Assembly (NCBI GenBank): GCA_025060015.1
Contig: JANXDB010000066.1
Location: 8,635-72,634 of the forward strand
DNA from: Caldimicrobium sp.
GTDB taxonomy: Bacteria; Desulfobacterota; Thermodesulfobacteria; Thermodesulfobacteriales; Thermodesulfobacteriaceae
Reading direction: 5' to 3'
Length of the DNA: 64,000 nt
Part shown: piece by piece, positions 1,011 to 63,211 of the stretch
How positions within the stretch are numbered: position 1 is the first letter of the stretch
Layout of the letters: each line of letters starts with the position of its first letter
Notes under the pieces: model-generated
Database searches by the model: none
What the model was told of the DNA's origin: nothing
What the model saw: the letters and a program-made list of their open reading frames with translations, nothing else
Translations under genes and position numbers: made by a program

Positions 1011-1024
1011 CTTTTACCTCCTAT

Positions 1025-4392: not shown

Positions 4393-4420
4393 AGCTACAC
4401 CTCCCTCTTATTTTAAAATT

Positions 4421-4906: not shown

Positions 4907-4936
4907 AGTGCACCTCCTCCTGTTGTTTATATTTTA

Positions 4937-5296: not shown

Positions 5297-5320
5297 CTCA
5301 ACACCTCCTTTATTTTTCTT

Positions 5321-6697: not shown

Positions 6698-6865
6698 CCT
6701 ACACCTCCTTCTCCTGTATGTTGTTGGGTTTTTTCTTTACCAAGATTTTATAAATTTTATATTAAAGTCAAAGTCAATTATAGGAATTTCTGACCAGATA
6801 ACAAAATTTTCCTTAATTTTTTCTGTAATTTGTTTTTTATTACTCATTTAATCTTTCATAAAACC

Positions 6866-8320: not shown

Positions 8321-8332
8321 AGATATCCCTCC

Positions 8333-9793
8333 TTAGGGAATATTAGCAAGTATTTTTGATACGGAAGTTTTCATAAAATCTAGGAACGGGTTGGGATAAA
8401 GACCGATAAGAAATATCAACAGGACCATAGGTATTAAGGAAAGAAGCTCATTCCATCTCAAAGGAGGAAGGTTAAAAACACCACTAACTGGTTTTTCAAA
8501 AAAGACCCTCTGATAGAGCCAGAGCATATAGGCTGCACCAATGATGACCCCTGTAGCTGCAAAGATAACCATGGCTTTATCCTTCATGAAAGCACCCTGT
8601 AGAATCAAGAATTCTCCAACAAAGCCGTTGGTTCCAGGAAGCCCAATACTTGCTAAGGTGAAGATCATAAAAAGGGCAGCATAAAGGGGAAAGGTGGTAG
8701 CTAAACCACCGTAGTAATTTATAGCTCTGCTATGGGTTCTATCATAGATTACCCCAACACACATAAAGAGTGCCCCGGTGACGATGCCGTGATTGATCAT
8801 CTGTAGAATTGCTCCATTAATTCCTATGGGGTTAAGTGAAAAGATACCTAAGGTGACAAATCCCATATGGCTTACAGAGCTATAGGCAATAAGCCTCTTA
8901 AGATCGTCCTGCCATAGACAGGCAAGGCCTGCATATATTATGGCAATAACTGAAAGAACAAGGATAAGTTTAGCAAAAAAGAGAGTTGCCTGTGGGAAAA
9001 GGGGAAGCAAAAATCTTACCATTCCGTAGCCGCCAAGCTTTATCAAAATACCAGCTAAGATTACTGATCCAGCAGTTGGGGCCTCGGTGTGAGCATCAGG
9101 TAACCAGGTATGAAAAGGCCACATAGGAACCTTTACAGCAAAGGCTAAGAGAAATCCGAGAAATAGAAGTTTTTCAACCTGTGGAGTGAAGGTCTTTCCT
9201 ATGAGAAGGGTGTAATCAAAGGTCCCAAACTGCAAAAAGAGATAAATTATGGCGGCAAGCATAAATATGGAGCCAAAAAAAGTGTAAAGAAAAAATTTGA
9301 TGGTGGAGTAGATCCGTCTTGGACCTCCCCAGATGCCTATGATAAGATACATGGGAATTAGGAGTGCCTCCCAAAAGACATAAAAGAGGAGCAAATCAAG
9401 TGAGAGAAAAACTCCCACCATGGCTATGTTGGTAAATAGCAGTGCAAGATAAAATTCCTTCACCTTTTCCTCAATAGAATACCAAGATATGAGAATACAA
9501 AGTAAGGTTACCAAGGTAGACAAAGGCACAAAGAGCACACTTATTCCATCTACCCCAAGAAAATAAAAACTGTTTATTACATCAAGCCAAGGTATTTTCT
9601 CTACAAATTGAAAGTTTGCGTTGGTAAAATCAAACCTATAAAGCAGTAAGATCGAGAGAATAAAATCAATGAGAGCAGTGATTAGGGCTATCACCTTTAT
9701 GGTATCTGGTCTTGACCTATTGGTAATAATAATGGCTGCAATGCCCAGGAGTGGAAACCACAGGATTGCCGAAAGAAGGCCAAAATCAGCCAC
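8333..9793 (-). CDS. nuoM: Complex I subunit M
   Basis: PFHTWLPDAHTEAPTAGS, LKRLIAYSSVSHMG. Confidence 0.95.
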   Translation of the reverse strand: MADFGLLSAILWFPLLGIAAIIITNRSRPDTIKVIALITALIDFILSILLLYRFDFTNANFQFVEKIPWLDVINSFYFLGVDGISVLFVPLSTLVTLLCILISWYSIEEKVKEFYLALLFTNIAMVGVFLSLDLLLFYVFWEALLIPMYLIIGIWGGPRRIYSTIKFFLYTFFGSIFMLAAIIYLFLQFGTFDYTLLIGKTFTPQVEKLLFLGFLLAFAVKVPMWPFHTWLPDAHTEAPTAGSVILAGILIKLGGYGMVRFLLPLFPQATLFFAKLILVLSVIAIIYAGLACLWQDDLKRLIAYSSVSHMGFVTLGIFSLNPIGINGAILQMINHGIVTGALFMCVGVIYDRTHSRAINYYGGLATTFPLYAALFMIFTLASIGLPGTNGFVGEFLILQGAFMKDKAMVIFAATGVIIGAAYMLWLYQRVFFEKPVSGVFNLPPLRWNELLSLIPMVLLIFLIGLYPNPFLDFMKTSVSKILANIP

Positions 9794-9803
9794 TTCAAAC
9801 CCC

Positions 9804-11774: not shown

Positions 11775-11778
11775 CTTC

Positions 11779-12081
11779 TTAACCTCGGAAATAATTTATC
11801 TCATCGGCATAGACCTTTCTGAGTTTCCTATAAAGTAAAACCACCAAGGTTAGTCCCACTCCCGCTTCAGCTGCAGCCAAGGCTATAAGAAAAAAGACAA
11901 TAATATAGCCCTGCACATCCTTTGTGTAGTGAGAAATACTGGCAAAAAGGATCATCAGGGCATTCATCATTATCTCAAAGGAGACAAGTAAAATGATGAG
12001 ATTTCTCCTAAATAAAACTCCTATAAGGCCGATACAAAAGAGTAGTAGAGTTAAAAGAACATAATATTCAAAGGGAATCAC
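11779..12081 (-). CDS. nuoK: Complex I subunit K
   Basis: RRNLI...EIMMN...AAAEAGVGL. GTG at 12081 preferred over the TTG at 12087 because of GGAGG spacing. Confidence 0.92.
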   Translation of the reverse strand: MIPFEYYVLLTLLLFCIGLIGVLFRRNLIILLVSFEIMMNALMILFASISHYTKDVQGYIIVFFLIALAAAEAGVGLTLVVLLYRKLRKVYADEINYFRG

Positions 12082-12598
12082 CTTCAACCTCCTTTAGCTT
12101 TCTAAGCAAAAAAACAGCCCCCAAAACCACAACCAAGAGCAATACCCCAATGAGCTCAAATTGAAAGAGATAATGAGTAAAGAGGTAGCGTGCAATCCAC
12201 CACAGATTGGTGCCCTGAGAAAGGTCATAGTGGAGATTAGCCTTAAAATGAGGTGAAAGGGCTGTGAGAAAGGCTAAAGACTTAAAGAAGAAAAAGGCAA
12301 AGAATAACAATATCAACAAGCCAAGAGAGCTCCTCTTTACAAATACCCTCCATCTCTCTTCCATCCTGAGATTGATCATGTAAACCACAAAGAGAAAAAG
12401 GACTAAAACAGCCCCGGCGTAGACTATAATTTGAACAGCTGCTAAGAACTCTGACCCCAGGGTATAAAGCAAAAAGGCCTGGTGTATGATTAGAACTAAA
12501 ACCCAGAGCACCGCATGCACAGGATTTTTTGATAAAACCGCAAGAAGTCCTGGTATGCACATACCCAAAGCTAAATACAGAAAAACAAGCAAATCCAT
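12068..12598 (-). CDS. nuoJ: Complex I subunit J
   Basis: KNPVHAVLW, QIIVYAGAVLVLFLFVVYM, FELIGVLLL. Confidence 0.92.
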   Translation of the reverse strand: MDLLVFLYLALGMCIPGLLAVLSKNPVHAVLWVLVLIIHQAFLLYTLGSEFLAAVQIIVYAGAVLVLFLFVVYMINLRMEERWRVFVKRSSLGLLILLFFAFFFFKSLAFLTALSPHFKANLHYDLSQGTNLWWIARYLFTHYLFQFELIGVLLLVVVLGAVFLLRKLKEVEGDSL

Positions 12599-12602
12599 AG
12601 AG

Positions 12603-13148
12603 CTATACTCCTGTGAAGGTTCTCTTTCTAATAGGTAGGATCTTTTCTGGAATACCCCTTGGTTTCCAAAAGGGATTCAGGTATGGTCTTTTCTGAGTGG
12701 CGATAAACTCATCCCAGTTTTGAAGAAGTCTCTCTTTGTCAAAGTAAACCTCATCCCTACTGAAGCCTAAGTACTCAAAGAACTCAGTTAATACTACAGC
12801 ATTAACCGGACAAACCTCTTCACAATAACCACAGTAAACACATCTCAGTGCCTCTATGTCGTATCTTGTTATCTTCCTTTTCTTTGCCTCTTTATCCGCT
12901 TCGTATTCGATGTATATACACCTTGAGGGACAAACTTTGACACACCTTAGGCAGGCTATACAAAAGGTGTCTCCGCTTTGAGGATCCCTAACCAAGGCAT
13001 GTCGTCCTCTGAACCCAGGCTCTGGCTTAACCTTATCCTTTTCCGGATACTGAATGGTTACAGGTCTGTCAAAAAGAAGCTTCCTTAAAGTAAGGGCCAA
13101 GCCCTTAAGTATCTCGATAAGAAGAACCTTTTTAAGAAGAGACATCAT
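12603..13148 (-). CDS. nuoI: Complex I subunit I (2x[4Fe-4S])
   Basis: TIQYP, CIACLRCVKVCP, CVYCGYCEEVCP. Confidence 0.95.
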   Translation of the reverse strand: MMSLLKKVLLIEILKGLALTLRKLLFDRPVTIQYPEKDKVKPEPGFRGRHALVRDPQSGDTFCIACLRCVKVCPSRCIYIEYEADKEAKKRKITRYDIEALRCVYCGYCEEVCPVNAVVLTEFFEYLGFSRDEVYFDKERLLQNWDEFIATQKRPYLNPFWKPRGIPEKILPIRKRTFTGV

Positions 13149-13155
13149 AATCCCC

Positions 13156-14151
13156 CTAAAGCCATAACTTAAAAAGGGCTGTGAGAAATAGATTAGCCAA
13201 ACTTAGAGGTATTAAAATTTTCCACCCTAGACCCATCAACTGATCATAACGATAGCGCGGCAAGGTTGCTCTAACCCAAATATAGAAAAACAATAACAGA
13301 TACAGCTTTAACAAAAACCAGAAAAAGGGAAGGCCAGGGATTTCAAAGGGACCAAGGTAACCACCTAAAAAGCAGGTTGCCGCTAAGCCAGACATTATAA
13401 CCATACCAAAATATTCCGCCAAATAGAAAAGGGCAAATCTGATTCCGCTGTACTCCACAAAATAACCTGCCACAAGCTCAGTCTCCGCTTCAGGAAGATC
13501 AAAGGGAACCCTGTTGGTCTCTGCTATAGCCGAAACCATAAAAATAAAGAAGGCTATAATTTGGGGAAATACAAAGGCTTTAAAGGGACTTTCTGCCTGT
13601 GCCCTGACAATTTCTTGAAGATTAAAGGACCCTGCCATAAGGACCACAGAGAGTAAAGCCAAGGACATGGCAATTTCGTAACTGATAACCTGGGCACTGG
13701 CTCTTAGGGCCCCAAGAAAGGCATATCTTGAATTGGATGCCCATCCAGAGAGAATAACCCCGTATGCACTAAGAGAACTCAAGGCTAAAATAAAAAGTAA
13801 ACCAACGTTGAGATTACTTAGGACGAATTTATCCCAGAGGGGAATAAAGGCAAGTCCTGAAGCACCGCAAACCAGGGCAATAAGGGGAGCTATTAAAAAC
13901 ACAGGCCTATCGACTGCCGATGGGATAATATCCTCCTTGTGAAGCAGTTTCAACACATCAGCAATAGGCTGAAGTAATCCCCTAGGACCTACTCTATTTG
14001 GTCCAAGCCTCTGTTGCATCCTAGCTATGATTTTTCTTTCCACATAGGTAAGGTAGGCAACATGGAGAAGGGCTAAGAGGAGAAGCACCAGGTATATAAT
14101 AAGCATAATGACGAAGGCTGGCAATAAAGATAAATCCATCTCCCCCTCCAA
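13156..14151 (-). CDS. nuoH: Complex I subunit H
   Basis: RLGPNRVG, AETNRVPFDLPEAETELVAG, PRYRYDQLM. Confidence 0.96.
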   Translation of the reverse strand: MEGEMDLSLLPAFVIMLIIYLVLLLLALLHVAYLTYVERKIIARMQQRLGPNRVGPRGLLQPIADVLKLLHKEDIIPSAVDRPVFLIAPLIALVCGASGLAFIPLWDKFVLSNLNVGLLFILALSSLSAYGVILSGWASNSRYAFLGALRASAQVISYEIAMSLALLSVVLMAGSFNLQEIVRAQAESPFKAFVFPQIIAFFIFMVSAIAETNRVPFDLPEAETELVAGYFVEYSGIRFALFYLAEYFGMVIMSGLAATCFLGGYLGPFEIPGLPFFWFLLKLYLLLFFYIWVRATLPRYRYDQLMGLGWKILIPLSLANLFLTALFKLWL

Positions 14152-14169
14152 GAGGTTAAAAACTAAAAC

Positions 14170-15402
14170 CTATCTATCGCAATCCCCTAAGACCACATCC
14201 AAGGTCCCAATGATGGCAATGAGGTCTGCTATCATATGCCCCTTTGTTAATTCAGGTATAGCGGAGATATGCACAAAAGAGGGCATTCTGAGCCTAAGGC
14301 GCCAGGGTCTGTTTGAGCCATCGCTCACCACATAAACTGCAAGTTCTCCTTTGGGAGATTCAATACTTGCAAAGGCCTCACCCACAGGAACGACGGAAAC
14401 TTCCCTTCCTGTAAAGATAAAACCTCTCTTGGGATGAGGTTTGGGCTCAGGCTCCCTTACCCTTTCAGGAATAAGCAAATCCGGAGAGTCTTCCGCTAAG
14501 ACCGGTTCCCCCTCTGTCTCCTTCAGCTTATCTAAACATTGCCTGATGATTTTATTCGATTGTCTCATCTCTATCATTCTCACTCTGTATCTGTCGTAGG
14601 TGTCTCCTTTTTCCCCCACGGGCACTTCAAATTCCACCTCATCATAGGCATCGTAGGGTCTGAATTTCCTCACATCATATGGAATCCCTGAACCCCTTAA
14701 AACAGGGCCTGTTAACCCCAAGTTAATAGCCTCCTCTGGTGTAACAACTGCTATATCTTTAGTGCGTTTAAGCCAGATCCTATTTACATCTATTAGCGTC
14801 TCGTATTCAGTGATGAGATGGGGAAACTCTTCAGTAAATTTATAGAGATCTTCTACTATATCCACGGTAAAATCCAATCTTACTCCACCTATCCGGACAT
14901 AGCTATGAGTTAGCCTTGCACCACAGATCTTTTCAAAGATATTTAAAAGCCTTTCACGATCTCTAAAACAGTAGAGAAAGACCGTCATAGCCCCAATGTC
15001 AAGGGCATGGGTGGCAAGCCAGAGTAAATGACTGGAAATTCTAGCCATCTCTCCAACTATGGTTCTAAGTAGCCTTGCCCTCCTTGGAACCTTTAGATTA
15101 AATAGTTTTTCGAAGGCAAGAGCAAAGACTATGTTGTTGGCAACCGAGGCTATGTAATCCAAACGATCGCTCAGCACAATAGTTTGATTGTAATTCAAGT
15201 TCTCAGCAAGCTTTTCTACACCTCTATGAAGATATCCTACCACGGGATCACATCTCAAAATGGTCTCTCCGTCAAGCTCCAAGACCAAGCGCAGGACACC
15301 GTGAGTTGAAGGATGCTGAGGCCCCAGATTCAGATAAAAGGGCTCGACGATGGCTTCAGAAGAATTCTTTTTGGCTGTTATCTCAATAAGTGGAGAGCTC
15401 AT
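14170..15402 (-). CDS. nuoD: Complex I subunit D
   Basis: NLGPQHPSTHGVLRL, GYLHRGVEK, RLDY, ends GDCDR. Confidence 0.96.
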   Translation of the reverse strand: MSSPLIEITAKKNSSEAIVEPFYLNLGPQHPSTHGVLRLVLELDGETILRCDPVVGYLHRGVEKLAENLNYNQTIVLSDRLDYIASVANNIVFALAFEKLFNLKVPRRARLLRTIVGEMARISSHLLWLATHALDIGAMTVFLYCFRDRERLLNIFEKICGARLTHSYVRIGGVRLDFTVDIVEDLYKFTEEFPHLITEYETLIDVNRIWLKRTKDIAVVTPEEAINLGLTGPVLRGSGIPYDVRKFRPYDAYDEVEFEVPVGEKGDTYDRYRVRMIEMRQSNKIIRQCLDKLKETEGEPVLAEDSPDLLIPERVREPEPKPHPKRGFIFTGREVSVVPVGEAFASIESPKGELAVYVVSDGSNRPWRLRLRMPSFVHISAIPELTKGHMIADLIAIIGTLDVVLGDCDR

Positions 15403-15911
15403 TGGGCCCCCTTAGCTTTGGTCTTGAATTTTCTGTAAGCCTTCCACTCTTTCTCTTCAGGAAGTTCTACAGGATAGTCCTTTCTCAAAGGATGGCCCTC
15501 CCAGTCTTCTGGCATGAGAAGCCTCCGCAGGTCAGGATGACCTTTAAAACGTATTCCGAACATATCAAAACATTCCCTCTCAAACCAGTTAGCTGCCTTC
15601 CAAAAGGAGGTGAGAGAATACTGCCAGCAATCACTCTCTGCGATGGGAACCTTAACCCTCAACAATTCTCTCTTTGGAATGCTATACAGATGATAGACTA
15701 CTTCAAAGCGTTCTATCTTTTTTTCAGGTTTGTAATTCAAATAGTCAACAGCGCAGAGATCAAGAAGGTGATTAAACCCTTCTTTTCTTAAAAAGTCTAT
15801 GAACTCAAGAAAGCCATCTCTTTTGATGATAACCGTTGGGAGATCCTCCTCTCTAACCTCTAAAATGAATTTTCCAAACTCATCTCTGATCACGGATAGG
15901 AGATCTTTCAT
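15399..15911 (-). CDS. nuoC: Complex I subunit C
   Basis: AANWFERECFDMFGI, GHPLRKDYP. Start set at ATG 15911, just after the nuoB stop, rather than the track's TTG at 16010. Confidence 0.93.
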   Translation of the reverse strand: MKDLLSVIRDEFGKFILEVREEDLPTVIIKRDGFLEFIDFLRKEGFNHLLDLCAVDYLNYKPEKKIERFEVVYHLYSIPKRELLRVKVPIAESDCWQYSLTSFWKAANWFERECFDMFGIRFKGHPDLRRLLMPEDWEGHPLRKDYPVELPEEKEWKAYRKFKTKAKGAQ

Positions 15912-15913
15912 GG

Positions 15914-16432
15914 CTATCTTCTCCAAAAACCCCACTTCCCTTTTTCTCCCTTGATCTTTTCTTGCAACTTTACCATGGCGTATAATAGGGCTTCCGGTCT
16001 TGGAGGACAACCAGGTAGGTAGATATCAACAGGTAGGAACTCATCCACTCCCTGAACCGTTGAATAAGTCCTAAAGATACCTCCGGAACAGGCGCAGCTT
16101 CCCATGGCAATCACATACTTGGGTTCAGGCATTTGATCATAGACCCTCTTTATAATAGGAGCCATTTTTTTTGTTACTGTTCCTGCCACAATAAGACAAT
16201 CCGCCTGTCTTGGGGAAGCCCTGAATATGATTCCGAACCGATCAAGGTCAAAGTGGCTAGCACCCGTTGCCATCATCTCTATAGCACAACAGGCAAGTCC
16301 AAAGGTCATAGGCCAAATGGAAGAAGCTCTTGCCCAATTCAAAATCTTATCTACAGGTGTGATAAAGGCAGGAGTGCCCGGAATTTGTCTGATCGAAGGA
16401 GCTAACTCAACGGTTGAAGTCTCTATTCCCAC
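15914..16432 (-). CDS. nuoB: Complex I subunit B
   Basis: [31 protein letters not shown]. Confidence 0.96.
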
Positions 16433-16776
16433 TTCAGACCTCCCTCAAGAAGGGCATACACAAAGGCAACAAGTAGCAACACCACAAAGATAAAAATTTC
16501 AACGAAACCAAACCATGATAGTTCCTCAAAGACCACTGCCCAGGGGTAGAGGAAAACTATCTCTACATCAAAGATAAGAAAGATAAGGGCTATTAGATAA
16601 AATTTTACCCTGAAAGGAATCTTGGTGTCCCCTGAGGGATCGATACCACATTCATAGGGTATTAGCTTTTCCGTAGATGGCTTCCTAAGGGCAAGGATTC
16701 TGTTACCAACTAACATAGAAATACCCATGCCTAAAACAAGAGCCGCAAAGATCAAAAAGGGTAAAAGAGTTCCCAT
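16423..16776 (-). CDS. nuoA: Complex I subunit A
   Basis: [24 protein letters not shown]. Confidence 0.95.
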
Positions 16777-42169: not shown

Positions 42170-42601
42170 CTATTTCACTTCATATTCAGATACCCAGAGA
42201 TCATGAAGGTTACAAAAGCTGGTTGCATAGATCTTTCCTTTAAAGCCTTGAGGAAGTTGATAGGTAGACTTGGCCTCTCTGTCATTAGGAGTGAAAACCT
42301 TTGAGCCTAAGAAGTTGCCCTTTTCGTCAACTAAGGTATGCCTCACTATAAAATGAGCCTCGGTCATAACATGATAAGTAAAGACAGTGACCCTATCACC
42401 CTGAACTTCAATAATGGGCGCATGGCTCCCAGCTTTGCCCTTCCAGATACCCTCATTATCTTTGGTATAAATTATTGCCTTGAGATAAGGCGGAAGATTT
42501 GCTGGAAGGTAAGCATGAGCCTTTGGCGTGTTGATAAGATCTAAAAGACTTAATCCACCTGCACTAGCCAACAAAATCCTTAAAAAATCCCTTCTTTCCA
42601 T
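42170..42601 (-). CDS. Tat-exported desulfoferrodoxin/superoxide reductase-like protein
   Basis: ERRDFLR twin-arginine signal with AHA cleavage site; Fe ligands GSH, YHVM, EAHF, FCNLH. Confidence 0.8.
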   Translation of the reverse strand: MERRDFLRILLASAGGLSLLDLINTPKAHAYLPANLPPYLKAIIYTKDNEGIWKGKAGSHAPIIEVQGDRVTVFTYHVMTEAHFIVRHTLVDEKGNFLGSKVFTPNDREAKSTYQLPQGFKGKIYATSFCNLHDLWVSEYEVK

Positions 42602-46125: not shown

Positions 46126-49100
46126 TTATCCATTTAAACTATTGATAACTAAATCTTTTAGCCTAACACAAATTTCTTGCCAATCTCTCTCTTGCCTCTC
46201 CACACTGTCCATAAAGTCCTCCAATTCTCTGGTAAACTCTTCGGATATGTATTGGAAAAATCTCTGAGAAAGATGATGGTAAACCTTTTTCCCGAGATTT
46301 GTGGGCACGAGGCTTCCATTTTTAAGCTCATATACATAATAGCGCTGCAAAAGGGTTGAGACAATTTCGGCATAGGTTGAGGGTCTTCCCAGGCCTCTCT
46401 TTTTCATCTCCTGTATGAGACTTCCTTGATTAAAAAGAAAGACTCGAGGGATCTTGTGAAGTTCAATCTTTTCCGGTTTAAGGTCCTCTTTCCATTTGAA
46501 AAGCGGAGGCGATTTCCATATTAGATTAAAGCTATCTTTAAGGATGGCAAGATTTAGGTGTTCTTCCCATGTATGAGAGGGCACTTGGAAATTAAAGATT
46601 CCTTTTTTAAGCTTCATTGGTGCACATTGACTAGCCATAAATCTTCTGAATATCAAATCGTATATCCTCAAAGAGTCTTTGGTATTTTTAAAGGTAAGCA
46701 AACCGTGAGCCAATCTTATCTTTAGCTCACTAATATCCCAGGGATGAGTTGGTCTAATGCCTTCATGGGCCCCAACTTTTGACCACTCTCGGGGATAAAA
46801 TATCTCCAAACCTAAGTTTTTTTCTATGTAAGGTTTAGCTACCTGATATCTTCCAACCTCTGAGATACGTGTTGAATCAGTGCGATGATAGGTAATAAGT
46901 CCAAGTTCAAAGAGCTCTTGAAGCAAGTCCATGGTATGAGAGGTTGAAAAACGAAAATTAACATAGGCCTCTTCTAAGATAGTATCCGTGGTATATGGTG
47001 GAGGTGGATTAAGCTCTTCCTCGGTTTCCCCTAAAAGAGTAACCCTAAGCTGAGGCATCTCCTCCATTAGCCTCTTTGCCCTATCCTCCTCCTCGAAATC
47101 AAGGCTAAAGGGAAGCTCTCCCAGGGTGAAACCGATACGGAACCTGTAGGTTTTGGCCTCCTCTGCGCGCTTTATAACCCAGCCTAAAACAGGCGTCTGA
47201 ACACGTCCTGCTGAAAGGGTCCTCTTTCCAAAGGTCTTCCATAGCTCCCTTGATAGAGAAAAACCTACCCATCTATCCGCTACCCTTCTTGCTAGTTGAG
47301 CCTTGACCTTGGCTAGGTTTATCTCTCCAGCCTGCTCCAGGGCCTGTTTAAAGGCCCTTGGAGTTATCTCATGAAACTCTAATCTCTTTATGTTACTCTG
47401 AAAAGGTCTAAGATTGATAAAAAGGTCGTAGGCAATCTTTTCACCCTCAGAATCAGGGTCAGAGGCTATGAAGGTCTCCGTAGAACAAAAGGCAAGGGAT
47501 CTTAGGGCAGTGACGAGCTCGCCCTTGTCATAAACCTCTCCATGTTCGTTATGATCCTCATCGACAAACTCTTCTCCTCTATCCCTAAAGATCTTTATCG
47601 AGTCAAAGAGAGGATAAAAATTTCTCCCTTCTTCTAGCACTCCATATAGGCCCTCCTTTCTTGACAGATTGAAAAGATGGCCCATACAGGCACACACTGA
47701 AAGGAGCGTATTTTCCATAGGTATTTCATAAACCCATAGATTCTTGATTCTCCTTTTAGATGGTTTACCGAAGAAACCAGCAATGGTCTTTGCCTTATGA
47801 GGTGATTCTACGATTACCAGATAATTCCTAAAATCAAGATTTAAGTCCCTGAGATTTTTTCTCTCCTCTCTTACCATGTTATCTATTGACTTAAGATCCT
47901 CCTGCTCGACCTTTTGAAAATCGGGTTCTTCACCCAAAAAGACCTTCAACCTTCTCTTTAGGCTCCTGAAGGCTTTACCATTATCAATCAAAAGAATAGA
48001 AATACCAGGCAACAACCCCTTGGCAGTGAGTCTTGACACTCTGCCTGAGCCCTGGAGGTATACCTGGGCATTACCTAACACCACATAATACTTCCCACCG
48101 TCCACTTCAAGAAACACCTCATCGGAGGTCATCAATTTTTCTATGAAACTCTGATCCTGAAGCTTTAAGACTAGAAAATCTCTTATATTTTCAACCTTTT
48201 TCTTTAAACCCTCATACTGAGAGAGCGAGTCCTCCTTAAGCGTTAAATACTTCCGAAGATAATTGAGGTATGAGAGGGATTGTAGTCTCTCTTCATCTTC
48301 AAAGAGTGGCAAAAGGGAGAGCAGGAGATTATATAGAAAGGGAATAGCTAAAGGCAATTCAAAGGTATCACCGCTTTTTAACAAAGGAAAGCGATGTTTA
48401 GGAACTCCCAAAAAAAGTGCATATCTCAGGACCTCTGGAAGATCAATCCCTCTTAAAAGGGGATTACCAAGGTGCGCTAAACCCACCGCAATCTGAACCT
48501 CTTGACTTTCGAGACTATTAAGTAATTCTTCTTCATCAACCTCTAGGTAGGAAATCGCCTTTACACCATTTTCCGAGAAATATTTTGTGACCCTCTCAAC
48601 ACCCTCTCGTCCATAGGCTTCATCAACAAAAACCAGCCCGCCACCATTCAGGCTGTGAACTATGCTAAGGGCCTCTCTTGCCAAAGTGTCTAATTTGCAA
48701 TCTCCAACCTCTAAGTAAAGATCTTTGACTTTTCTCAGAGTGGATACGAAACGGGTAATCTCAAAGCCAAGAAGGTTCTGAAAAAGAACAGCACGACTGG
48801 TCTTTGGCTTAAGGGTAGCGGAGGATATAATGAGTCTTTTTTGGTTATTTTTGTGACGTTCCTTGATCTTTCCAAGTTGAAAAAAATCTTCCTCTTCCTT
48901 TTGTCTTTTCAAAGCCAAAGAGACTTCCTTTGGTGTAAATCCCAAAAGATAAAAGAGCTCCTCCACATTCTTACCGCTTTTTAGAAAAGAATCTACGTCA
49001 TCAACAAAGATGAGAGAGAAATCCAATTTCTTAAGAATGTCAAACTGGCGGTGAAAAAAGGCCTGGGTACAGACAAAAACATCAAAATCTCCCCTTTCAA

Positions 49101-49617
49101 GAAGGCCCTTTTCTTTGGCTGAACCTGTGTATGAGAGGATCTTTTTACTCTTTATGAAATCCTTGGTGGAGATCTCCTTTAATCTTTGCAATCGTTCAGT
49201 GAGATGAGAGACAAGGACCTTAGTTGGAACCAGTATCAAGGTCTTTTCGGCGTTTAAAAGTGCGGCAAGAAGGCCAAAGGTCGTTTTCCCTGTTCCTGTG
49301 GGGGCAACAATAGCAAAGGATTCATTAAGATAAAACCTTTTTGCCCAACCTATCTGGAGTGAGGTGGGAGAGGTTCCCACCATCTCTTTAAAAACCTCAT
49401 TGAAAATGGCTACCCTCTCCTCTACTCTGGCAAAATTTTTCAGATCCTTAAGTCTTTTTCTGAGGGCAAGGGTTTTCACAACCTCCGTAAAGGGCATTGA
49501 AGTGGTGGGTATAAGTTTTTCTGGCAGACATTTTATGCATGGCAGTCCTCGAGCTAGTCTCTCATCAGAGATAATTCCTCCGCAATTGTGGCAGCCCTTT
49601 GCTAAATAGAAAAGCAT
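46126..49617 (-). CDS. rgy: Reverse gyrase
   Basis: N-terminal CHNC...CIKC Zn finger, APTGTGKTT, DDVD helicase-like domain, TOPRIM IVESPHKA, SAGRVQTP, active-site ITYHRTDS. Confidence 0.97.
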   Translation of the reverse strand: MLFYLAKGCHNCGGIISDERLARGLPCIKCLPEKLIPTTSMPFTEVVKTLALRKRLKDLKNFARVEERVAIFNEVFKEMVGTSPTSLQIGWAKRFYLNESFAIVAPTGTGKTTFGLLAALLNAEKTLILVPTKVLVSHLTERLQRLKEISTKDFIKSKKILSYTGSAKEKGLLERGDFDVFVCTQAFFHRQFDILKKLDFSLIFVDDVDSFLKSGKNVEELFYLLGFTPKEVSLALKRQKEEEDFFQLGKIKERHKNNQKRLIISSATLKPKTSRAVLFQNLLGFEITRFVSTLRKVKDLYLEVGDCKLDTLAREALSIVHSLNGGGLVFVDEAYGREGVERVTKYFSENGVKAISYLEVDEEELLNSLESQEVQIAVGLAHLGNPLLRGIDLPEVLRYALFLGVPKHRFPLLKSGDTFELPLAIPFLYNLLLSLLPLFEDEERLQSLSYLNYLRKYLTLKEDSLSQYEGLKKKVENIRDFLVLKLQDQSFIEKLMTSDEVFLEVDGGKYYVVLGNAQVYLQGSGRVSRLTAKGLLPGISILLIDNGKAFRSLKRRLKVFLGEEPDFQKVEQEDLKSIDNMVREERKNLRDLNLDFRNYLVIVESPHKAKTIAGFFGKPSKRRIKNLWVYEIPMENTLLSVCACMGHLFNLSRKEGLYGVLEEGRNFYPLFDSIKIFRDRGEEFVDEDHNEHGEVYDKGELVTALRSLAFCSTETFIASDPDSEGEKIAYDLFINLRPFQSNIKRLEFHEITPRAFKQALEQAGEINLAKVKAQLARRVADRWVGFSLSRELWKTFGKRTLSAGRVQTPVLGWVIKRAEEAKTYRFRIGFTLGELPFSLDFEEEDRAKRLMEEMPQLRVTLLGETEEELNPPPPYTTDTILEEAYVNFRFSTSHTMDLLQELFELGLITYHRTDSTRISEVGRYQVAKPYIEKNLGLEIFYPREWSKVGAHEGIRPTHPWDISELKIRLAHGLLTFKNTKDSLRIYDLIFRRFMASQCAPMKLKKGIFNFQVPSHTWEEHLNLAILKDSFNLIWKSPPLFKWKEDLKPEKIELHKIPRVFLFNQGSLIQEMKKRGLGRPSTYAEIVSTLLQRYYVYELKNGSLVPTNLGKKVYHHLSQRFFQYISEEFTRELEDFMDSVERQERDWQEICVRLKDLVINSLNG

Positions 49618-59136: not shown

Positions 59137-60303
59137 ATGAAAAATTTGAAAAGATATCCTAAAGGTGCACAATCGCTAATAACTCTGTTTATCAGAAAAA
59201 TATCAAAAGACGAGATCTTACTTTTTGCTCAAAGTCTCACCTACAACACTCTGCTAACACTTATTCCTCTGCTTGGGCTTTTGTTTTCCCTAAGCAGGAT
59301 TTTACTTCCCGAAGATCACTTAATTCAACAGATTTTTAGTTTTTTTGTCAAGTATTTGACACCAGAAGCCTTAATTCAGGTAATGGAGACGATAATAAAA
59401 ATTCTTGATAACCTAAAGAAATTCCCCTTGGGCAAATTCAGCCTATTTTTGTATTTTCTAATGAGCTTGGGTTTACTTTTGCAAATTGAAGATGCCTTAA
59501 ACAGAATTTTTCTATCACACAAGAGAAGATCACTGAAAGAGAGAATCCTTTTCTATTGGATTGCCCTGAATTTAGCACCAGTTATACTCCTTCTGCCTTT
59601 TCTTTTACAGGCCTCTATACAAGGGCTCAGGGATTATCATCTTATCTTCTATTTCCTCTTTTTGTTTCTCTTTTTCTTTTTGGTTTATATATACTTTCCA
59701 GCAAGAAAGATAAGTAAAATCGCTGCTGTTAAAGGTGCAATTTTGGGAACTCTACTCTGGTATAGTTTTTCCATGTTATTTGGTGTTTACGTAAAGAAAG
59801 CTATAGCCTATTCCAAACTCTACGGAAGTCTTTCAGTTGTCCCACTGTTCTTAATATTTCTATTTTTAAACTGGCTGATCTTTCTTATGGGAGCAGAAAT
59901 TACTTACTTTTTGGAGAAAAAACCCTGGATCAAAAGACCCCTTAAGATAGATGGTCCTTTAAGAGCCCTACTTATTCTCTCGGTAATAGCTAGTAATTTT
60001 TATAGGGGTAAAACTACAAAGATTAATAACTTAGAGGCACTCACTTTAATATCAGAGGAAGATCTCCTATCAACTCTCAATTTCCTTGAAATAAAGGGGT
60101 GGATTAAAATAAATGATGAAGAAATCTTTTTGATGATGCCCCCTGAAAAGATACTTCTTTCTGAAATTTTAATGCTTGAGGCCCATCAAAAACTCCAAGA
60201 ATTGTTTAAAGAGTTGAATCTGAACATAAGACTATGTCTTTTAGATTCGGGATTATCAGAAGTTTCATTAAAAGATCTTATATCTGATGATAAAGGGCCC
60301 TGA
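59137..60303 (+). CDS. YihY/virulence factor BrkB family membrane protein with C-terminal HTH
   Basis: AQSLTYNTLLTLIP, YGSLSVVPLFL, GAEI. Confidence 0.85.
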   Translation: MKNLKRYPKGAQSLITLFIRKISKDEILLFAQSLTYNTLLTLIPLLGLLFSLSRILLPEDHLIQQIFSFFVKYLTPEALIQVMETIIKILDNLKKFPLGKFSLFLYFLMSLGLLLQIEDALNRIFLSHKRRSLKERILFYWIALNLAPVILLLPFLLQASIQGLRDYHLIFYFLFLFLFFFLVYIYFPARKISKIAAVKGAILGTLLWYSFSMLFGVYVKKAIAYSKLYGSLSVVPLFLIFLFLNWLIFLMGAEITYFLEKKPWIKRPLKIDGPLRALLILSVIASNFYRGKTTKINNLEALTLISEEDLLSTLNFLEIKGWIKINDEEIFLMMPPEKILLSEILMLEAHQKLQELFKELNLNIRLCLLDSGLSEVSLKDLISDDKGP

Positions 60304-60321
60304 GGTGACCCCCAAGGCCCT
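60291..60321 (-). terminator. Probable terminator of the rhodanese gene
   Basis: Minus strand AGGGCCUUGGGG-GUCA-CCUCAGGGCCCU (12 bp with G.U pairs) followed by UUAUC. Confidence 0.5.
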
Positions 60322-60368
60322 CATTATTGATTGAATTCTTGCATAATTGAATTCTTGCTTAGGCGAAA

Positions 60369-61676
60369 TTACTCAGTGATGGTGTATTTGTCGCCTACAA
60401 ATTCCACATTTGCCATGAGCACCTTTACATTTTCAAAGCCGAGATTTTTGAGAGCATTGTACCCCATTTCTGCCCTCACACCTGTTGCACAGTGCACATA
60501 TATGGGTTTGTCCTTGGGCAGCGTGTGGGCTTTCTGAGGTATATCGTCAACAGAGATATTTATGGCTCCCTTAAAATGACCTCTCTTGAATTCCTCTGGA
60601 GTTCTTACATCAACTATAACAGCAGATCCATCTTTAAGAGCCTTTTCAAAATCAGCTATGCTAACCTCAAAGGGTCTATAGGTTCTGACATAATGAATCT
60701 GTGTAGGAATAGGACCCTTCTTTACCTCTAAACCCTTAGCAGCCCATTCCTGTAAACCACCTGAATAGACTGTGACATTTGGATAGCCAAAGTCTTTTAT
60801 GATCTTAACTGCCTCAGCTAAATCCTCCTTTTTATCAGAGTAAATCACAATAGGAGCCTTGGTGTATGTGGGAAACTTTTCTTCAGCCTTAGACAGATCT
60901 TTCATAGGAATATTCACAGCTTTGGGAATATATCCTGTTTTAGCAATGGTTTGAGGATCTCTCAAATCGATTAGCACGATGTTTTCCTTCTGAATGTAGT
61001 CTGCTGTAGATTCTGTGTAGTATCCGGCCTTTTTCCATCCGGGCTCACCATCCATGTAAACTTTTACATTTTTAAAGCCCCATTTGACGGCAAGTCCTGC
61101 CGCCTTAGGACTCATAGTTCAGGTGGGCCCTCCACAATAGAAAATGACCAACTTGTCTTTGGCTATGTTTGCCAGTGTTTTTTCTCCCTCTTTTTCCATT
61201 ACAGTTACAGGGATGCTAATTGCCGTAGGTATATATGAGGCATGATATCTTGGCGCAGGCCTTGAATCAATTAAAACATAGGTTCCAGGGGATTCAAAAA
61301 CGAGCTTGGCCAATTCGGAGGTTTTGATCTCAGTAACTCCTTGAGGTAACTCAGCAATAGCTAATTTAATTAACTTTGCGATATTTTTACCATCAACAAC
61401 TACATACTTTACCTCTACCTCTTGACCCTGAATCTCCCTTATCTTCTTGGGATCAATGTGCTGAAAAACCGTCTTGTCATCGTATTTAATATTGATCTTT
61501 TTACCTGCATGATCCACTGTGATTGTCTGAATAGTTACCGCTACCGCAGATACCTGTCCCTTGATGGACTGCTCTTGAGCCATTGTTGATGTCACCCAAA
61601 GAGCAGACTGCAGAAGGGTCAAAATTAGAAATAATAAAAGAGCCCTCATACTTCGGAGACGAAACAGCTCCATCAT
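60369..61676 (-). CDS. Exported triple-rhodanese sulfurtransferase, predicted selenoprotein (435 aa, Sec186). Joins track ORFs 61119..61676 and 60369..61115
   Basis: TAT TGT GGA GGG CCC ACC TGA ACT ATG AGT CCT = YCGGPT-U-TMSP, in frame. Signal peptide, beta domain, rhodanese 1 (CxxxxU), rhodanese 2 (no Cys), rhodanese 3 (HCATGVRA). SECIS-like hairpin follows the UGA. Confidence 0.82.
61086..61121 (-). promoter_or_regulatory. Bacterial SECIS element candidate
   Basis: UGA + 14 nt + GGCGGCA-GGACU-UGCCGUC; the apical GCA-GGAC resembles the E. coli fdhF GCA-GGUC-UGC (recalled). Confidence 0.72.
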
Positions 61677-61718
61677 ACTCTACACCTCCATATAAATTTT
61701 ATATAAATTCTTAAAAAA

Positions 61719-61746
61719 ATATTAACAATTTTTTATAAGCTGTCAA
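61719..61746 (-). promoter_or_regulatory. sigma70-type promoter for the rhodanese gene
   Basis: TTGACA-16 nt-TAATAT in AT-rich DNA; RBS GGAGGTG. Confidence 0.5.
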
Positions 61747-61856: not shown

Positions 61857-61941
61857 TGCCGAGGGCGGGAGTCGAACCCGCACGGGGGCGAACCCCAGTG
61901 GATTTTGAGTCCACCGCGTCTGCCAGTTCCGCCACCTCGGC
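61857..61941 (-). tRNA. tRNA-Leu (CAA)
   Basis: GCCGAGG acceptor stem, GTGGA-CTCAAAA-TCCAC anticodon arm, variable arm, GGTTCGACTCC; CCA not encoded. Confidence 0.96.
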
Positions 61942-61981: not shown

Positions 61982-63211
61982 TTAATACTCTAAGATCCTC
62001 TTTTCCTCATGAACCAGGAACTCCATCCCAGATTTTACATGGTATTTTACCCTGGTTATAAGTTCAACTCTTCTCACGTCCCGAGGAAAGATGGCGTAAA
62101 ATCTCTCAGTGGTAACCTCTCGTGGAGGTAGAGAAAAATCAACGAGATCCTTTACCTCAAAAGAGACAAACCTTCTATTTCCATACCAGTCAAGTCCAAT
62201 TTCAAAATACTCTTTGTCGCCTTTCCACACCACCTTTCCTTTTTCATCAAGGGCAACGAGCTCAAGTATTACCTTAGATGTCCAATAACAACCATCAGGA
62301 ATGCGATGGCCAGCGTTATTAATTAGATCTACGGTTATTACCGCAGCAGGATTTCTCTTGGTGTGATCAGTGAGAGGTGCAAAGGGCTTGTATTCTATTA
62401 CATTCCTAACCTGCACGTTAAGCCCGATCCCTTCTTTTAGCATGTCTACCACATAGGTTCCCGGAAAGGTATGCCCACGATTTTTAGCCCTCATATGACA
62501 ATCCTGACAGGAGGATTGACCACCCATAGCCACATAGTGATCTCTATAGCTTTGGGCAATGGTGCTACAAAAAATTGGCTCACCGTCGGGAGCAAGGTAT
62601 GCTCCGTGACACTGCATACAAAAATTGGAATTTCCTATGTATGGATGTCTCTTAACGGCGTGAAAAGGCGACTGACCTTTACCTTTTGTGCCATACATTA
62701 CATTAGGTTCTGGCCTCTCCGGTGGATGAAGGGCCTTCATGTTGTGGCAAATATAACAGGTAACGGTAAGCCTTTCCAATAGATTTTTTGCCTTGCTATC
62801 TTTTTTCTCATAGTAATCAATCACCGCCTGGGCCACCTCTCTCATGAATTTCTCTGAAGCCTGCTCTAGCTGTGGTGCATGACAAACGAAACACTTCATA
62901 AGCTCTGCTTTGTAGCCTCCAGGTTTCTTGGCCCGAGCACTTCTCTCAGGATCATTAGGAACGGCATTTTTTATTTAGGAATAAATTATGTCGATGGAAT
63001 GCAAAATGCTCTGAGAATGCATAGAAACTTTCCACTGCTCGTAGACATCTCCATGACAACCTGCACACACATCTGCAGGCGGATAAAGTTGCTCAAGTTC
63101 ATCAATGCTATCCACAAGCTTACCCTTTTCAATACTAACTGGCGCTGAACTTACTTGGCCAAGTAAAAGAACTATCAATAAGAGTACGATACCAAAGGTC
63201 CACTTTTGCAT
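61982..63211 (-). pseudogene. Pentaheme cytochrome c, ExtKL/MccSep-like (Cys variant), interrupted by one in-frame TAA at 62975-62977
   Basis: Track ORFs 62975..63211 and 61982..62899 are in the same frame and joined by 25 open codons. Signal peptide; CAGCH, CFVCH, CYICH, CMQCH, CQDCH; AGHRIPDGC motif. Confidence 0.72.

What the first reader, a model, noticed from the sequence alone, without database searches (positions are those of the whole stretch)
60369..61676. Hidden selenoprotein: exported triple-rhodanese with a CxxxxU active-site loop, split by standard gene calling
Seen: the two track ORFs are in one frame, separated only by TGA-ACT (YCGGPT-U-TMSPKAAGLA). The UGA falls inside the rhodanese active-site loop. 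Without read-through, domain 1 loses its last helix/strand (SPKAAGLAVKWGFKNVKVYMDGEPGW is the normal rhodanese C-terminal segment) and the downstream part has no export signal. Domain order: Sec-type signal, beta domain, Rhod1 (C...U), Rhod2 (Cys replaced), Rhod3 (HCATGVRA). It has its own promoter, a maximal RBS and a terminator. Established: rhodaneses carry sulfane sulfur, and Sec-containing rhodaneses occur in Desulfobacterota. Inference: a highly expressed periplasmic polysulfide/S0 mobiliser using a Cys-Sec pair.
Basis: partly seen in the sequence, partly recalled or inferred. Interest (0 to 1): 0.85.

Follow-up and report, generated by a model that had tools for sequence, protein, structure and literature searches.

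The report
Exported triple-rhodanese selenoprotein, split by gene calling
The two adjacent ORFs are almost certainly one gene for a secreted three-rhodanese sulfur-handling protein whose in-frame UGA encodes selenocysteine. It belongs to a widespread Sec/Cys family of sulfur-cycling bacteria that gene callers split in two, and it is real but an example of an already known kind (rhodanese selenoproteins).

Summary
Minus-strand ORFs 61676-61122 and 61115-60369 share one frame and are separated only by TGA-ACT.

Evidence that the TGA encodes selenocysteine is strong:
- 165 of 166 uninterrupted homologues have Cys at that column; one has Arg.
- 32 of 77 species-representative loci have TGA exactly there.
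- Sec and Cys forms interleave on the family tree, with at least 9 switches.
- All Sec forms, but few Cys forms, carry a hairpin about 17 nt downstream with a G-first apical loop (p≈1e-7), and it shows compensatory changes.
- A covariance model trained on other lineages hits only this site in the 64 kb (E≈5e-6).
- Both halves evolve under dN/dS≈0.11.
- Four independent hot-spring metagenomes carry the same TGA.
- TGA is otherwise a normal stop in the window.

The protein has a Sec-type signal peptide, a CusF-like OB domain, Rhod1 (C181-x4-U186), an inactive Rhod2, and Rhod3 (C396-x4-R). The gene next door encodes a Cys-type MccSep/ExtKL polysulfide reductase.

The likely role is a periplasmic sulfane-sulfur relay. 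That role is inferred from context, not shown.

Not verified: selABCD in this genome, and expression level. Rhodanese selenoproteins are already catalogued in five forms, so novelty is modest.

The parts
61719..61746 (-). Promoter-like site TTGACA-16 nt-TG-n-TAATAT upstream of the gene
   Evidence: 10 of 12 matches, extended -10 TG; the count of such sites in this region is not above shuffled expectation.
61683..61689 (-). Shine-Dalgarno GGAGGTG, 6 nt before the ATG
   Evidence: read directly from the sequence.
61122..61676 (-). CDS part 1, codons 1-185: signal peptide, OB domain, and Rhod1 up to ...FYCGGPT
61578..61676 (-). Sec-type signal peptide (residues 1-33; n-region R6/R8/R11, hydrophobic core, TMA|QE cleavage site; no RR motif, no lipobox)
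   Evidence: Sequence inspection plus hydropathy. Homologues have equivalent N-termini. No signal-peptide predictor was available.
61362..61571 (-). N-terminal OB-fold beta-barrel domain (residues ~36-105), CusF/SilF-like fold
   Evidence: AF2 pLDDT 91.7; Foldseek hits to CusF 2vb2/2qcp with TM 0.76 and E about 1e-5; no Pfam family; no conserved Met/His/Trp-type ligand residues in the family alignment.
61008..61343 (-). Rhodanese domain 1 (residues ~112-223), with active-site loop C181-G-G-P-T-U186
   Evidence: The closest solved structure, BH2092 (3nhv), has the loop YCWGPAC with the same C-x4-C spacing.
61134..61136 (-). Codon for Cys181, the canonical rhodanese catalytic Cys of domain 1
   Evidence: Present in at least 90% of the family.
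61119..61121 (-). In-frame UGA = Sec186
   Evidence: Cys in 165 of 166 uninterrupted homologues; TGA in 32 of 77 species loci; no variant in four metagenomes.
61075..61113 (-). SECIS-like hairpin: lower stem 61113-61106 with 61082-61075; conserved upper stem 61104-61098 with 61092-61086; apical loop GGACU at 61097-61093, 21 nt after the UGA
   Evidence: Fold of -20.8 kcal/mol, z -2.99; hairpin specific to Sec forms, p=1.4e-7; covariation; out-of-sample CM hit at 61121-61077, 28.1 bits, E 5.5e-6, the only significant hit in the window.
60369..61118 (-). CDS part 2, codons 187-435 plus TAA: end of Rhod1, then Rhod2 and Rhod3
   Evidence: dN/dS is 0.115 here against 0.106 upstream.
60693..61001 (-). 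Rhodanese domain 2 (residues ~226-328), catalytic Cys replaced (…IVIYSD…), presumably inactive
   Evidence: The mature protein has no Cys other than 181, 186 and 396.
60408..60665 (-). Rhodanese domain 3 (residues ~338-423), with canonical loop H-C396-A-T-G-V-R401-A
   Evidence: Best Pfam stretch 341-420. C396 is invariant and R401 is present in at least 90% of sequences.
60293..60322 (-). 13-bp GC-rich hairpin about 45 nt after the stop, between convergent genes. A possible bidirectional terminator, but the tail is TTTATCAT rather than a U-run
   Evidence: fold; not called by the terminator scan.
61982..63211 (-). Context: upstream neighbour, a five-heme Cys-type MccSep/ExtKL polysulfide-reductase homologue, interrupted in this strain by TAA at 62975-62977
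   Evidence: NF040886: 325 bits against a cutoff of 250, with the TAA read as Tyr; motif NNAGHRIPDGC compared with the MccSep peptide ...NHAGHSIPDGU; the polymorphism is seen.

Best explanation
One gene (61676..60369, minus strand) encodes a 435-residue precursor. Its UGA at 61121-61119 is recoded to selenocysteine by a bacterial SECIS hairpin that starts 8 nt downstream, with its apical loop 21 nt downstream.

After Sec-dependent export and signal-peptide cleavage, the ~44.6-kDa periplasmic protein has four parts: a CusF-like OB domain, a rhodanese domain with a Cys181/Sec186 pair in the active-site cradle, a degenerate rhodanese domain, and a canonical rhodanese domain (Cys396-x4-Arg).

Shown here: the gene structure, the recoding signature, and the family-wide Sec/Cys alternation.

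Inferred: Sec186 occupies loop position +5, whose side chain faces the catalytic Cys persulfide in solved rhodaneses. The pair can therefore form a selenylsulfide or hold a sulfane chain as Cys-S-(S)n-Se-Sec. This would make domain 1 a fast, reversible acceptor and cleaver of polysulfide/S0 sulfur, which is then passed on, possibly via Cys396, to periplasmic multiheme or molybdopterin sulfur reductases such as the neighbouring MccSep-type enzyme. The role would be analogous to Sud feeding Psr.
For: Recoding:
- Cys at the column in 105 of 106 and 165 of 166 uninterrupted homologues.
- Every half-length homologue examined has an upstream rhodanese ORF ending in TGA at the same column.
- 32 of 77 species-representative loci have TGA and the rest TGC/TGT.
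- At least 9 Sec/Cys switches on the family tree.
- The hairpin is specific to Sec forms: local MFE -8.5 against -5.2 kcal/mol, p=1.4e-7, and all 32 have a stem of at least 5 bp at the same offset with a G-first loop.
- The core stem is 100% paired in 30 distinct sequences, with C-G to G-C and C-G to A-U double changes.
- A CM built without this lineage finds only this site in the window, at 28.1 bits and E 5.5e-6, with the next hit at 12.6 bits.
- The window's own fold is -20.8 kcal/mol, z -2.99.
- dN/dS is 0.106 upstream and 0.115 downstream of the TGA.
- The TGA is identical in four metagenome assemblies.
- TGA ends 7 of 53 other long ORFs, so the code is standard.

Architecture.

Function:
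- The neighbour is above the curated cutoff for ExtKL/MccSep, an enzyme shown to be a periplasmic polysulfide reductase (PMC13510729).
- Synteny is kept in L001 and L010.
- Cys-form relatives sit beside octaheme tetrathionate-reductase-family cytochromes or between ExtMNOP-like and PsrABC-like genes.
- A secreted three-rhodanese sulfurtransferase is encoded in the Psr operon that is upregulated during S0 disproportionation in Desulfurivibrio dismutans (PMC12142623).
- The window carries sat, aprBA and qmo genes.
Against: - No selA, selB, selC or selD in the window, and the rest of this genome could not be reached.
- No protein or RNA evidence.
- Whole-segment folding energy does not separate Sec from Cys forms (p=0.26). 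Only the local hairpin does.
- The lower stem seen in the window is not conserved family-wide (51% paired).
- Much of the hairpin's sequence conservation is confounded with coding for A-G-L-A.
- The MccSep neighbour is specific to the Caldimicrobium lineage (1 of 77 other loci), and in this very strain it carries a nonsense codon.
Confidence: 0.82

Rival explanations
1. The UGA is a genuine stop. The locus is either two separately translated genes (an exported OB domain plus truncated rhodanese, and a cytoplasmic two-rhodanese protein starting at ATG 61115) or a gene inactivated by a nonsense mutation.
For: Gene callers produce exactly these two ORFs in every Sec-form relative. An ATG lies two codons after the TGA. 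Sec machinery is unverified. The neighbouring gene in this strain does carry a real nonsense allele.
Against: - The same 'nonsense' codon sits at the same column in 32 distinct species, always TGA and never TAA or TAG.
- Cys occupies that column elsewhere.
- There is a Sec-form-specific hairpin.
- Purifying selection is equal on both halves.
- The Met at +2 is equally conserved in uninterrupted Cys forms (C-G-M-S), so it is not a dedicated start codon.
- The only SD-like GGAGG is 13 nt upstream of that ATG.
- The truncated domain 1 would lack two helices and a strand.
Confidence: 0.05
2. The UGA is read through, but not as Sec. Either near-cognate suppression inserts Trp, Cys or Arg, or the lineage has reassigned the codon.
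For: Read-through is required by the conservation pattern, and Sec itself was not observed directly.
Against: TGA terminates 7 of 53 long ORFs in the window. Only one TGA-interrupted gene exists in the 64 kb. The hairpin matches bacterial SECIS rules (distance to the loop, G-first apical loop) and is absent from most Cys forms. Strict alternation with Cys is the signature of Sec.
Confidence: 0.03
3. It is the same selenoprotein, but with a different job. Domain 1 would be a redox-active Cys/Sec oxidoreductase (for example reducing polysulfide, tetrathionate, selenite or arsenate, or resolving persulfides), or a selenium-trafficking protein like the rhodanese ExtH linked to selenite uptake. It would not be a sulfur carrier feeding reductases.
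For: - C-x4-C/U pairs suggest dithiol or selenylsulfide redox chemistry.
- TsoB has U-x4-U at the same spacing, fused to a DsbD-like redox module.
- Most bacterial selenoproteins are oxidoreductases (PMC9312934).
- The Geobacter ext cluster links a rhodanese and a porin to selenite reduction (PMC5877670).
- Geobacter relatives carry an added CxxCH heme motif.
Against: No electron-donor domain is present in the window protein. The canonical C-x4-R loop in domain 3 (C396 invariant, R401 in at least 90%) points to classical sulfane-sulfur transfer. Nothing here distinguishes carrier from catalyst.
Confidence: 0.25

Closest known systems
Catalogued rhodanese-like selenoproteins, forms 1-5 (review PMC13188914; bSECISearch, Zhang & Gladyshev 2005)
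   Same: Sec lies inside a PF00581 rhodanese domain. They are found mainly in Desulfobacterota and were predicted bioinformatically. The form 1 motif UxxS matches U-T-M-S here (family consensus U-G-M-S).
   Different: The listed motifs are UxxS, UxxG, CxU, UxxG and UxxxxU. No exported triple-rhodanese C-x4-U form is described. The form 1 reference sequence (WP_010941598.1) could not be retrieved, so identity with it is unresolved.
TsoB, a rhodanese/DsbD fusion-like selenoprotein (NF045694, motif UxxxxU)
   Same: Its rhodanese part aligns to domain 1 (residues 116-227). It has the same x4 spacing, with Sec at loop position +5.
   Different: It scores 76.6 bits against a cutoff of 805. TsoB has two Sec residues and a DsbD-like fusion. 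Here there is one Sec paired with Cys, three rhodanese domains and an OB domain.
NF041203 rhodanese_LYCAU (form 3, CxU)
   Same: A single rhodanese domain with a Cys and a Sec in the active-site loop. It is the second-best NCBIfam hit, on domain 1.
   Different: It scores 79.4 bits against a cutoff of 115, and the spacing is C-x-U rather than C-x4-U.
BH2092 of Bacillus halodurans (PDB 3nhv, 3o3w)
   Same: The closest solved structure to domain 1 (34% identity, rmsd 1.8 Å). Its loop Y-C-W-G-P-A-C has Cys at the Sec position.
   Different: It is a single-domain, uncharacterised structural-genomics protein in the Cys form, with no known function.
Sud (Wolinella succinogenes) and SbdP (Aquifex aeolicus), sulfur-supplying rhodaneses
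   Same: A proposed functional analogy: a rhodanese that binds polysulfide sulfur and hands it to a sulfur or polysulfide reductase. Sud is periplasmic. This rests on established knowledge and on the reference cited.
   Different: Both are single-domain, Cys-only proteins. Homology beyond the rhodanese fold was not tested here, and the partner here would be a multiheme MccSep-type enzyme rather than Psr.
ExtH of the Geobacter extHIJKL cluster
   Same: A rhodanese-family protein of ~49 kDa encoded beside ExtKL/MccSep, mirroring the rhodanese/MccSep adjacency here.
   Different: ExtH is a lipoprotein. The window protein has a type I signal peptide and no lipobox Cys. Its sequence relationship to ExtH could not be tested.

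Membership tests
Bacterial selenoprotein gene (UGA-Sec with SECIS) | In-frame UGA with the reading frame conserved on both sides | tested here: met
   dN/dS is 0.106 upstream and 0.115 downstream.
Bacterial selenoprotein gene (UGA-Sec with SECIS) | Homologues with Cys aligned to the UGA | tested here: met
   165 of 166 uninterrupted homologues have Cys. TGC/TGT occupy the column in 45 of 77 loci and TGA in 32.
Bacterial selenoprotein gene (UGA-Sec with SECIS) | Stem-loop just downstream of the UGA, with the apical loop about 16-37 nt away and G in its first positions (bSECISearch rules, from memory) | tested here: met
   Loop GGACU 21 nt after the UGA; specific to Sec forms; compensatory changes; out-of-sample CM hit at E 5.5e-6. 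No Rfam SECIS family matches.
Bacterial selenoprotein gene (UGA-Sec with SECIS) | selA, selB, selC (tRNA-Sec) and selD present in the same genome | not testable with these tools
   None in the window. The window's contig could not be extended.
Bacterial selenoprotein gene (UGA-Sec with SECIS) | Selenium incorporated into the protein | not testable with these tools
   This needs an experiment: 75Se labelling or mass spectrometry.
Rhodanese homology domain (PF00581) | Profile match above the gathering score, with an active-site Cys after the central strand | tested here: met
   176.2 bits against 22.2, in three stretches. C181 and C396 are in loop positions, and domain 2 lacks the Cys.
NF041203 rhodanese_LYCAU (seleno)protein | Score of at least 115 bits and a C-x-U motif | tested here: not met
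   79.4 bits. The motif here is C-x4-U.
NF045694 selenoprotein TsoB | Score of at least 805 bits, a rhodanese/DsbD-like fusion, and U-x4-U with two Sec | tested here: not met
   76.6 bits on the rhodanese part only. There is one Sec and no DsbD-like region.
Rhodanese-like selenoprotein 'form 1' (UxxS, WP_010941598.1) | Sec followed by x-x-S in a PF00581 domain | tested here: met
   U-T-M-S here and U-G-M-S in most Sec forms. A motif match alone is weak evidence.
Rhodanese-like selenoprotein 'form 1' (UxxS, WP_010941598.1) | Homology and the same Sec column as the reference protein | not testable with these tools
   The accession could not be fetched. No Geobacter sulfurreducens member appeared in the two protein searches, and literature searches did not describe it.
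ExtH-type rhodanese lipoprotein | Lipoprotein signal (lipobox Cys) | tested here: not met
   There is no Cys before residue 181. The signal peptide ends TMA|QE.
MccSep/ExtKL (the neighbour, not the finding itself) | NF040886 score of at least 250 bits, five CxxCH motifs, and Sec/Cys in the ...IPDG[UC] motif | tested here: met
   325 bits, five CxxCH motifs, and IPDGC. It is interrupted by TAA in this strain.

The most novel reading that the evidence does not exclude
This is an unrecognised, widespread family of periplasmic selenoproteins. Placing Sec at position +5 of the rhodanese cradle, paired with the catalytic Cys, would convert a passive sulfur carrier into a catalytic opener of polysulfide or S8, working through a selenotrisulfide relay. 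Such a protein would serve multiheme and molybdopterin sulfur reductases (MccSep, OTR, Psr). It would be the long-sought extracytoplasmic S0-mobilising step of sulfur respiration and disproportionation, and a second selenium-dependent component of the MccSep pathway.
Probability: 0.25. Interest if true: 0.7.

Novelty: new member of a known kind. Interest (0 to 1): 0.5.

Why it matters
- **Annotation.** In 32 of 77 species-representative genomes this gene is carried with TGA and read as two ORFs. None of the 192 family proteins retrieved carries U. No curated selenoprotein model reaches its cutoff.
- **Physiology.** The family sits in sulfur-respiring and sulfur-disproportionating Desulfobacterota, Nitrospirota and relatives, next to enzymes such as the recently characterised selenoenzyme MccSep. 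It is therefore a concrete, testable candidate for how insoluble or polymeric sulfur is captured in the periplasm, and for why these organisms need selenium.
- **Chemistry.** A natural series of C-x4-C, C-x4-U, C-x4-R (one homologue) and U-x4-U (TsoB) rhodanese loops offers a clean system for asking what Sec adds to sulfane-sulfur transfer.

Tried and rejected
- Whole-segment (54-nt) folding energy as a discriminator between Sec and Cys forms showed no difference (p=0.26). It was replaced by a position-specific hairpin test.
- The window-specific lower stem is not conserved (51% paired), so only the upper stem is treated as the family SECIS core.
- Rfam, at both gathering and permissive thresholds, has no SECIS match.
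- Sec machinery was sought in several ways, all without result:
  - The window has only tRNA-Leu genes and no sel ORFs.
  - Walking off the window failed. The exact protein exists only on a 3.8-kb Logan contig, and QmoA is not on record.
  - There is no tRNA-Sec in the 91 fetched loci.
  - A SelD probe hit only a betaproteobacterial Cys-form locus, L047.
  - Literature searches on Caldimicrobium and Thermodesulfobacteria were uninformative.
- MccSep adjacency as a family-wide rule was rejected: only the Caldimicrobium lineage shows it.
- Equating the ~460-aa Geobacter relatives with ExtH was rejected. They have type I signal peptides plus a CxxCH motif, not a lipobox.
- Similarity between the N-terminal OB domain and the 106-aa neighbour protein of betaproteobacterial loci: none by BLASTP.
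- No RNA-seq runs hold the gene.
- The identity of review 'form 1' (WP_010941598.1) could not be resolved.
Full report
**Observation**

On the minus strand an ATG at 61676, preceded by GGAGGTG six bases upstream, opens a 185-codon ORF that ends ...VIFYCGGPT-TGA (TGA = 61121..61119). One codon later an ATG at 61115 opens a 248-codon ORF in the same frame, ending at 60369. Read through, the 435 codons contain three Pfam rhodanese domains (176 bits against a gathering score of 22). A six-frame scan of the window for long frames interrupted by a single TGA gave only this credible case. Contigs from four independent hot-spring metagenome runs, from three studies, cover the gene and show no variant at the TGA, so it is not an assembly error.

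**Is the UGA selenocysteine? Homologues**

The first protein search returned 106 uninterrupted homologues of 373-563 aa. Of these, 105 have Cys at the aligned column (motif FYCGGPT-C-GMSPK) and one has Arg. It also returned 14 half-length proteins that begin at or just after 'MSPK', two residues past the column. The DNA of three such half-length hits always shows an upstream rhodanese ORF ending in TGA at that same column.

A scan of one genome per species returned 80 loci. In the 77 where the motif is readable, the codon is TGA in 32 and TGC/TGT in 45. Sec forms occur in Caldimicrobium, Nitrospirota, Dissulfurispiraceae, Pelovirga, many Desulfobulbales and Desulfurivibrionaceae, and the cultured Hydrosulfovibrio ferrireducens. 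Cys forms dominate in Comamonadaceae/Rhodoferax and Geobacter/Geomonas. On a neighbour-joining tree of 80 members the two states interleave, with at least nine switches. This is the dynamic described for genuine Sec/Cys families (PMC1794560). A second search seeded with a Pelovirga member brought the total to 192 family proteins. None contains U, 165 have Cys and one has Arg.

**Is the UGA selenocysteine? RNA signal**

The RNA from the UGA onward folds into a hairpin starting 8 nt downstream (-20.8 kcal/mol, z = -2.99). Its apical loop, GGACU, lies 21 nt after the UGA. That fits the bacterial SECIS rules as I recall them from bSECISearch.

Whole-segment stability does not separate Sec from Cys forms (p = 0.26), but the local element does. 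All 32 distinct Sec sequences have a stem of at least 5 bp centred at the same offset with a G-first loop. Cys forms have weaker stems at scattered positions (local MFE -8.5 against -5.2 kcal/mol, p = 1.4e-7). Sec forms almost always encode S/A-A-G-L-A over the hairpin, whereas Cys forms vary, which suggests the RNA constrains the protein sequence.

The four core pairs are paired in all 30 distinct sequences. Two of them show compensatory double changes, C-G to G-C and C-G to A-U, the latter through paired synonymous changes. The lower stem seen in the window is not conserved.

A covariance model built from 28 Sec forms, excluding the window and its three nearest relatives, was run unfiltered over both strands of the 64 kb. 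It finds one significant match, at 61121-61077 (28.1 bits, E about 5e-6, all seven pairs standard). The next hit scores 12.6 bits. Rfam has no matching family, as expected for bacterial SECIS elements.

**Is the UGA selenocysteine? Selection and genetic code**

Against the 93%-identical relative L001, dN/dS is 0.106 upstream and 0.115 downstream of the TGA. The downstream half is therefore not decaying. TGA ends 7 of 53 other long ORFs in the window, so the codon is not reassigned.

**What could not be shown**

The window has no sel genes and only two tRNA-Leu genes. I could not reach the rest of this genome. No RNA runs hold the gene.

**Anatomy**

Residues 1-33 form a Sec-type signal peptide: basic n-region, hydrophobic core, TMA|QE, no twin arginine and no lipobox. 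This is by inspection.

An AlphaFold model of the 71%-identical Cys homologue P0001 is confident (pLDDT 93.6, pTM 0.85). It shows a beta domain, three rhodanese domains and a C-terminal beta-hairpin. Stopping at the UGA would remove two helices and a strand of domain 1.

Modelled alone (pLDDT 91.7), the beta domain is an OB barrel closest to the periplasmic Cu/Ag chaperones CusF and SilF (TM 0.76). The family alignment conserves no Met/His/Trp-type ligand residues there.

Domain 1 has the six-residue loop C181-G-G-P-T-U186. The closest solved structure, the uncharacterised BH2092 (3nhv/3o3w; 34% identity, rmsd 1.8 Å), has Y-C-W-G-P-A-C with the same spacing. Domain 2 has lost the Cys. Domain 3 has the canonical H-C396-A-T-G-V-R-A. 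The mature protein (402 aa, 44.6 kDa) contains no Cys or Sec other than 181, 186 and 396.

**Context**

The window looks like a thermophilic member of the Thermodesulfobacteriaceae. It carries sat, aprBA, qmoA/B-like genes, a nuo operon and reverse gyrase. The closest named relatives of the gene are Caldimicrobium MAGs (80% and 65% identity), and the source is hot-spring metagenomes.

Immediately upstream, on the same strand and separated by tRNA-Leu(CAA), lies a five-heme cytochrome. It scores 325 bits against a cutoff of 250 on NCBIfam's ExtKL model. It carries ...NNAGHRIPDGC where Geobacter MccSep has ...NHAGHSIPDGU. MccSep was shown in 2026 to be a periplasmic Sec-dependent polysulfide reductase essential for S0 respiration (PMC13510729).

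That adjacency is conserved in L001 and L010 but not outside this lineage. Other arrangements are seen elsewhere:
- Betaproteobacterial Cys forms follow an octaheme tetrathionate-reductase-family cytochrome (639 bits), a DUF3373 outer-membrane protein and a 106-aa exported protein.
- A Geobacter relative lies between ExtMNOP-like and PsrABC-like genes.
- Many Desulfobulbales loci have a PAS kinase and a sigma-54 response regulator upstream.
- In Desulfurivibrio dismutans, a secreted three-rhodanese sulfurtransferase is encoded in the Psr operon that is induced during S0 disproportionation (PMC12142623).

**Mechanism**

Shown: the recoding signature and the architecture.

Inferred: in solved rhodaneses the loop wraps the catalytic Cys, and the +5 side chain faces the persulfide. 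This is established structural knowledge, recalled from memory and not measured here. Sec186 could therefore form a selenylsulfide with Cys181, or bridge a sulfane chain. That would give rapid, reversible capture and cleavage of polysulfide/S0 sulfur for hand-off to periplasmic reductases, as Sud does for Psr.

A rival reading is that domain 1 is itself a Cys/Sec oxidoreductase, or that it handles selenium. I cannot exclude this and put it at about 0.25.

The rivals that deny Sec are each unlikely, at 0.05 or less:
- a true stop codon, giving two genes or a pseudogene;
- read-through by something other than Sec.

**Comparison with what is known**

Rhodanese-domain selenoproteins have been known since 2005. 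A 2026 review lists five forms, with motifs UxxS, UxxG, CxU, UxxG and UxxxxU (TsoB) (PMC13188914). Other relevant papers are PMC1976440 and PMC9312934.

The window protein fails the curated cutoffs of the two rhodanese selenoprotein models: 79 against 115 bits for NF041203, and 77 against 805 bits for TsoB. It shares TsoB's x4 spacing. Its U-x-x-S matches the 'form 1' motif, but I could not retrieve that reference sequence, so whether the family is already catalogued remains open.

I therefore rate it a new member of a known kind. It is a solid annotation correction with a useful physiological lead, not a new principle.

Noticed in passing
window 61982-63211 (-), stop codon at 62975-62977: The neighbouring Cys-type MccSep/ExtKL polysulfide-reductase homologue carries an in-frame TAA where relatives have Tyr. 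Metagenome contigs show a real strain polymorphism. TAT accounts for 51.7 of 71.1 depth in X1 and 22.7 of 39.1 in X2. X3 has only TAT and X4 only TAA. A nonsense allele of this enzyme is therefore segregating in hot-spring populations.
   Followed up: yes
window 1-16776 and 46126-49617: The window carries the sulfate-reduction gene set (partial qmoB-like, qmoA-like 1025-2266, aprA 2395-4392, aprB 4421-4906, sat 5321-6697). This is followed by a complete nuo operon (6866-16776) and a reverse gyrase (46126-49617). The set is consistent with a thermophilic Caldimicrobium-like sulfate reducer or sulfur disproportionator.
   Followed up: partly
L033:6001-7164 (Thermodesulfobacteriota MAG070): This Cys form (TGC) still carries the full Sec-type hairpin GCCGCCGGUCUGGCGGC downstream. 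It looks like a recent Sec-to-Cys conversion with a fossil SECIS.
   Followed up: partly
P0116, P0108, P0109 (Geobacter-type relatives, 455-467 aa); L090: These Cys-form relatives have an extra N-terminal CxxCH heme-binding motif ahead of the OB domain, so they may be c-type heme-rhodanese fusions. P0116 lies between ExtMNOP-like cytochrome/Rieske/cytochrome b genes and PsrABC-like genes.
   Followed up: partly
L017-L044 betaproteobacterial loci (e.g. L043:1443-3041, L044:2088-3911, L037:2370-2687): These loci share a co-directional cluster: an octaheme tetrathionate-reductase-family cytochrome, a DUF3373 outer-membrane protein, a 106-aa exported protein ending ...KKTAGC (a C-terminal Cys, reminiscent of a SoxY-type carrier arm), and then the Cys-form triple rhodanese. 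The composition resembles Geobacter extHIJKL.
   Followed up: partly
P0067 (455 aa homologue): This is the only uninterrupted family member without Cys at the Sec column. It has Arg (FYCGGPT-R-GFS), giving a C-x4-R loop like that of domain 3.
   Followed up: no
   Followed up: no
window 42170-42601 (-): A 143-aa ORF has a twin-arginine-type signal (MERRDFLRILL...AHA) and a weak match to the desulfoferrodoxin ferrous-iron-binding domain (27.5 bits, below the 61.9 cutoff). It may be an exported neelaredoxin-like protein.
   Followed up: no
window 61857-61941 (-): A tRNA-Leu(CAA) sits between the MccSep-like gene and the rhodanese gene. In the metagenomes many unrelated contigs join at this tRNA (depth spikes up to ~4450 and many loose ends). 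This is expected for a conserved tRNA sequence, and it breaks the assemblies here.
   Followed up: partly
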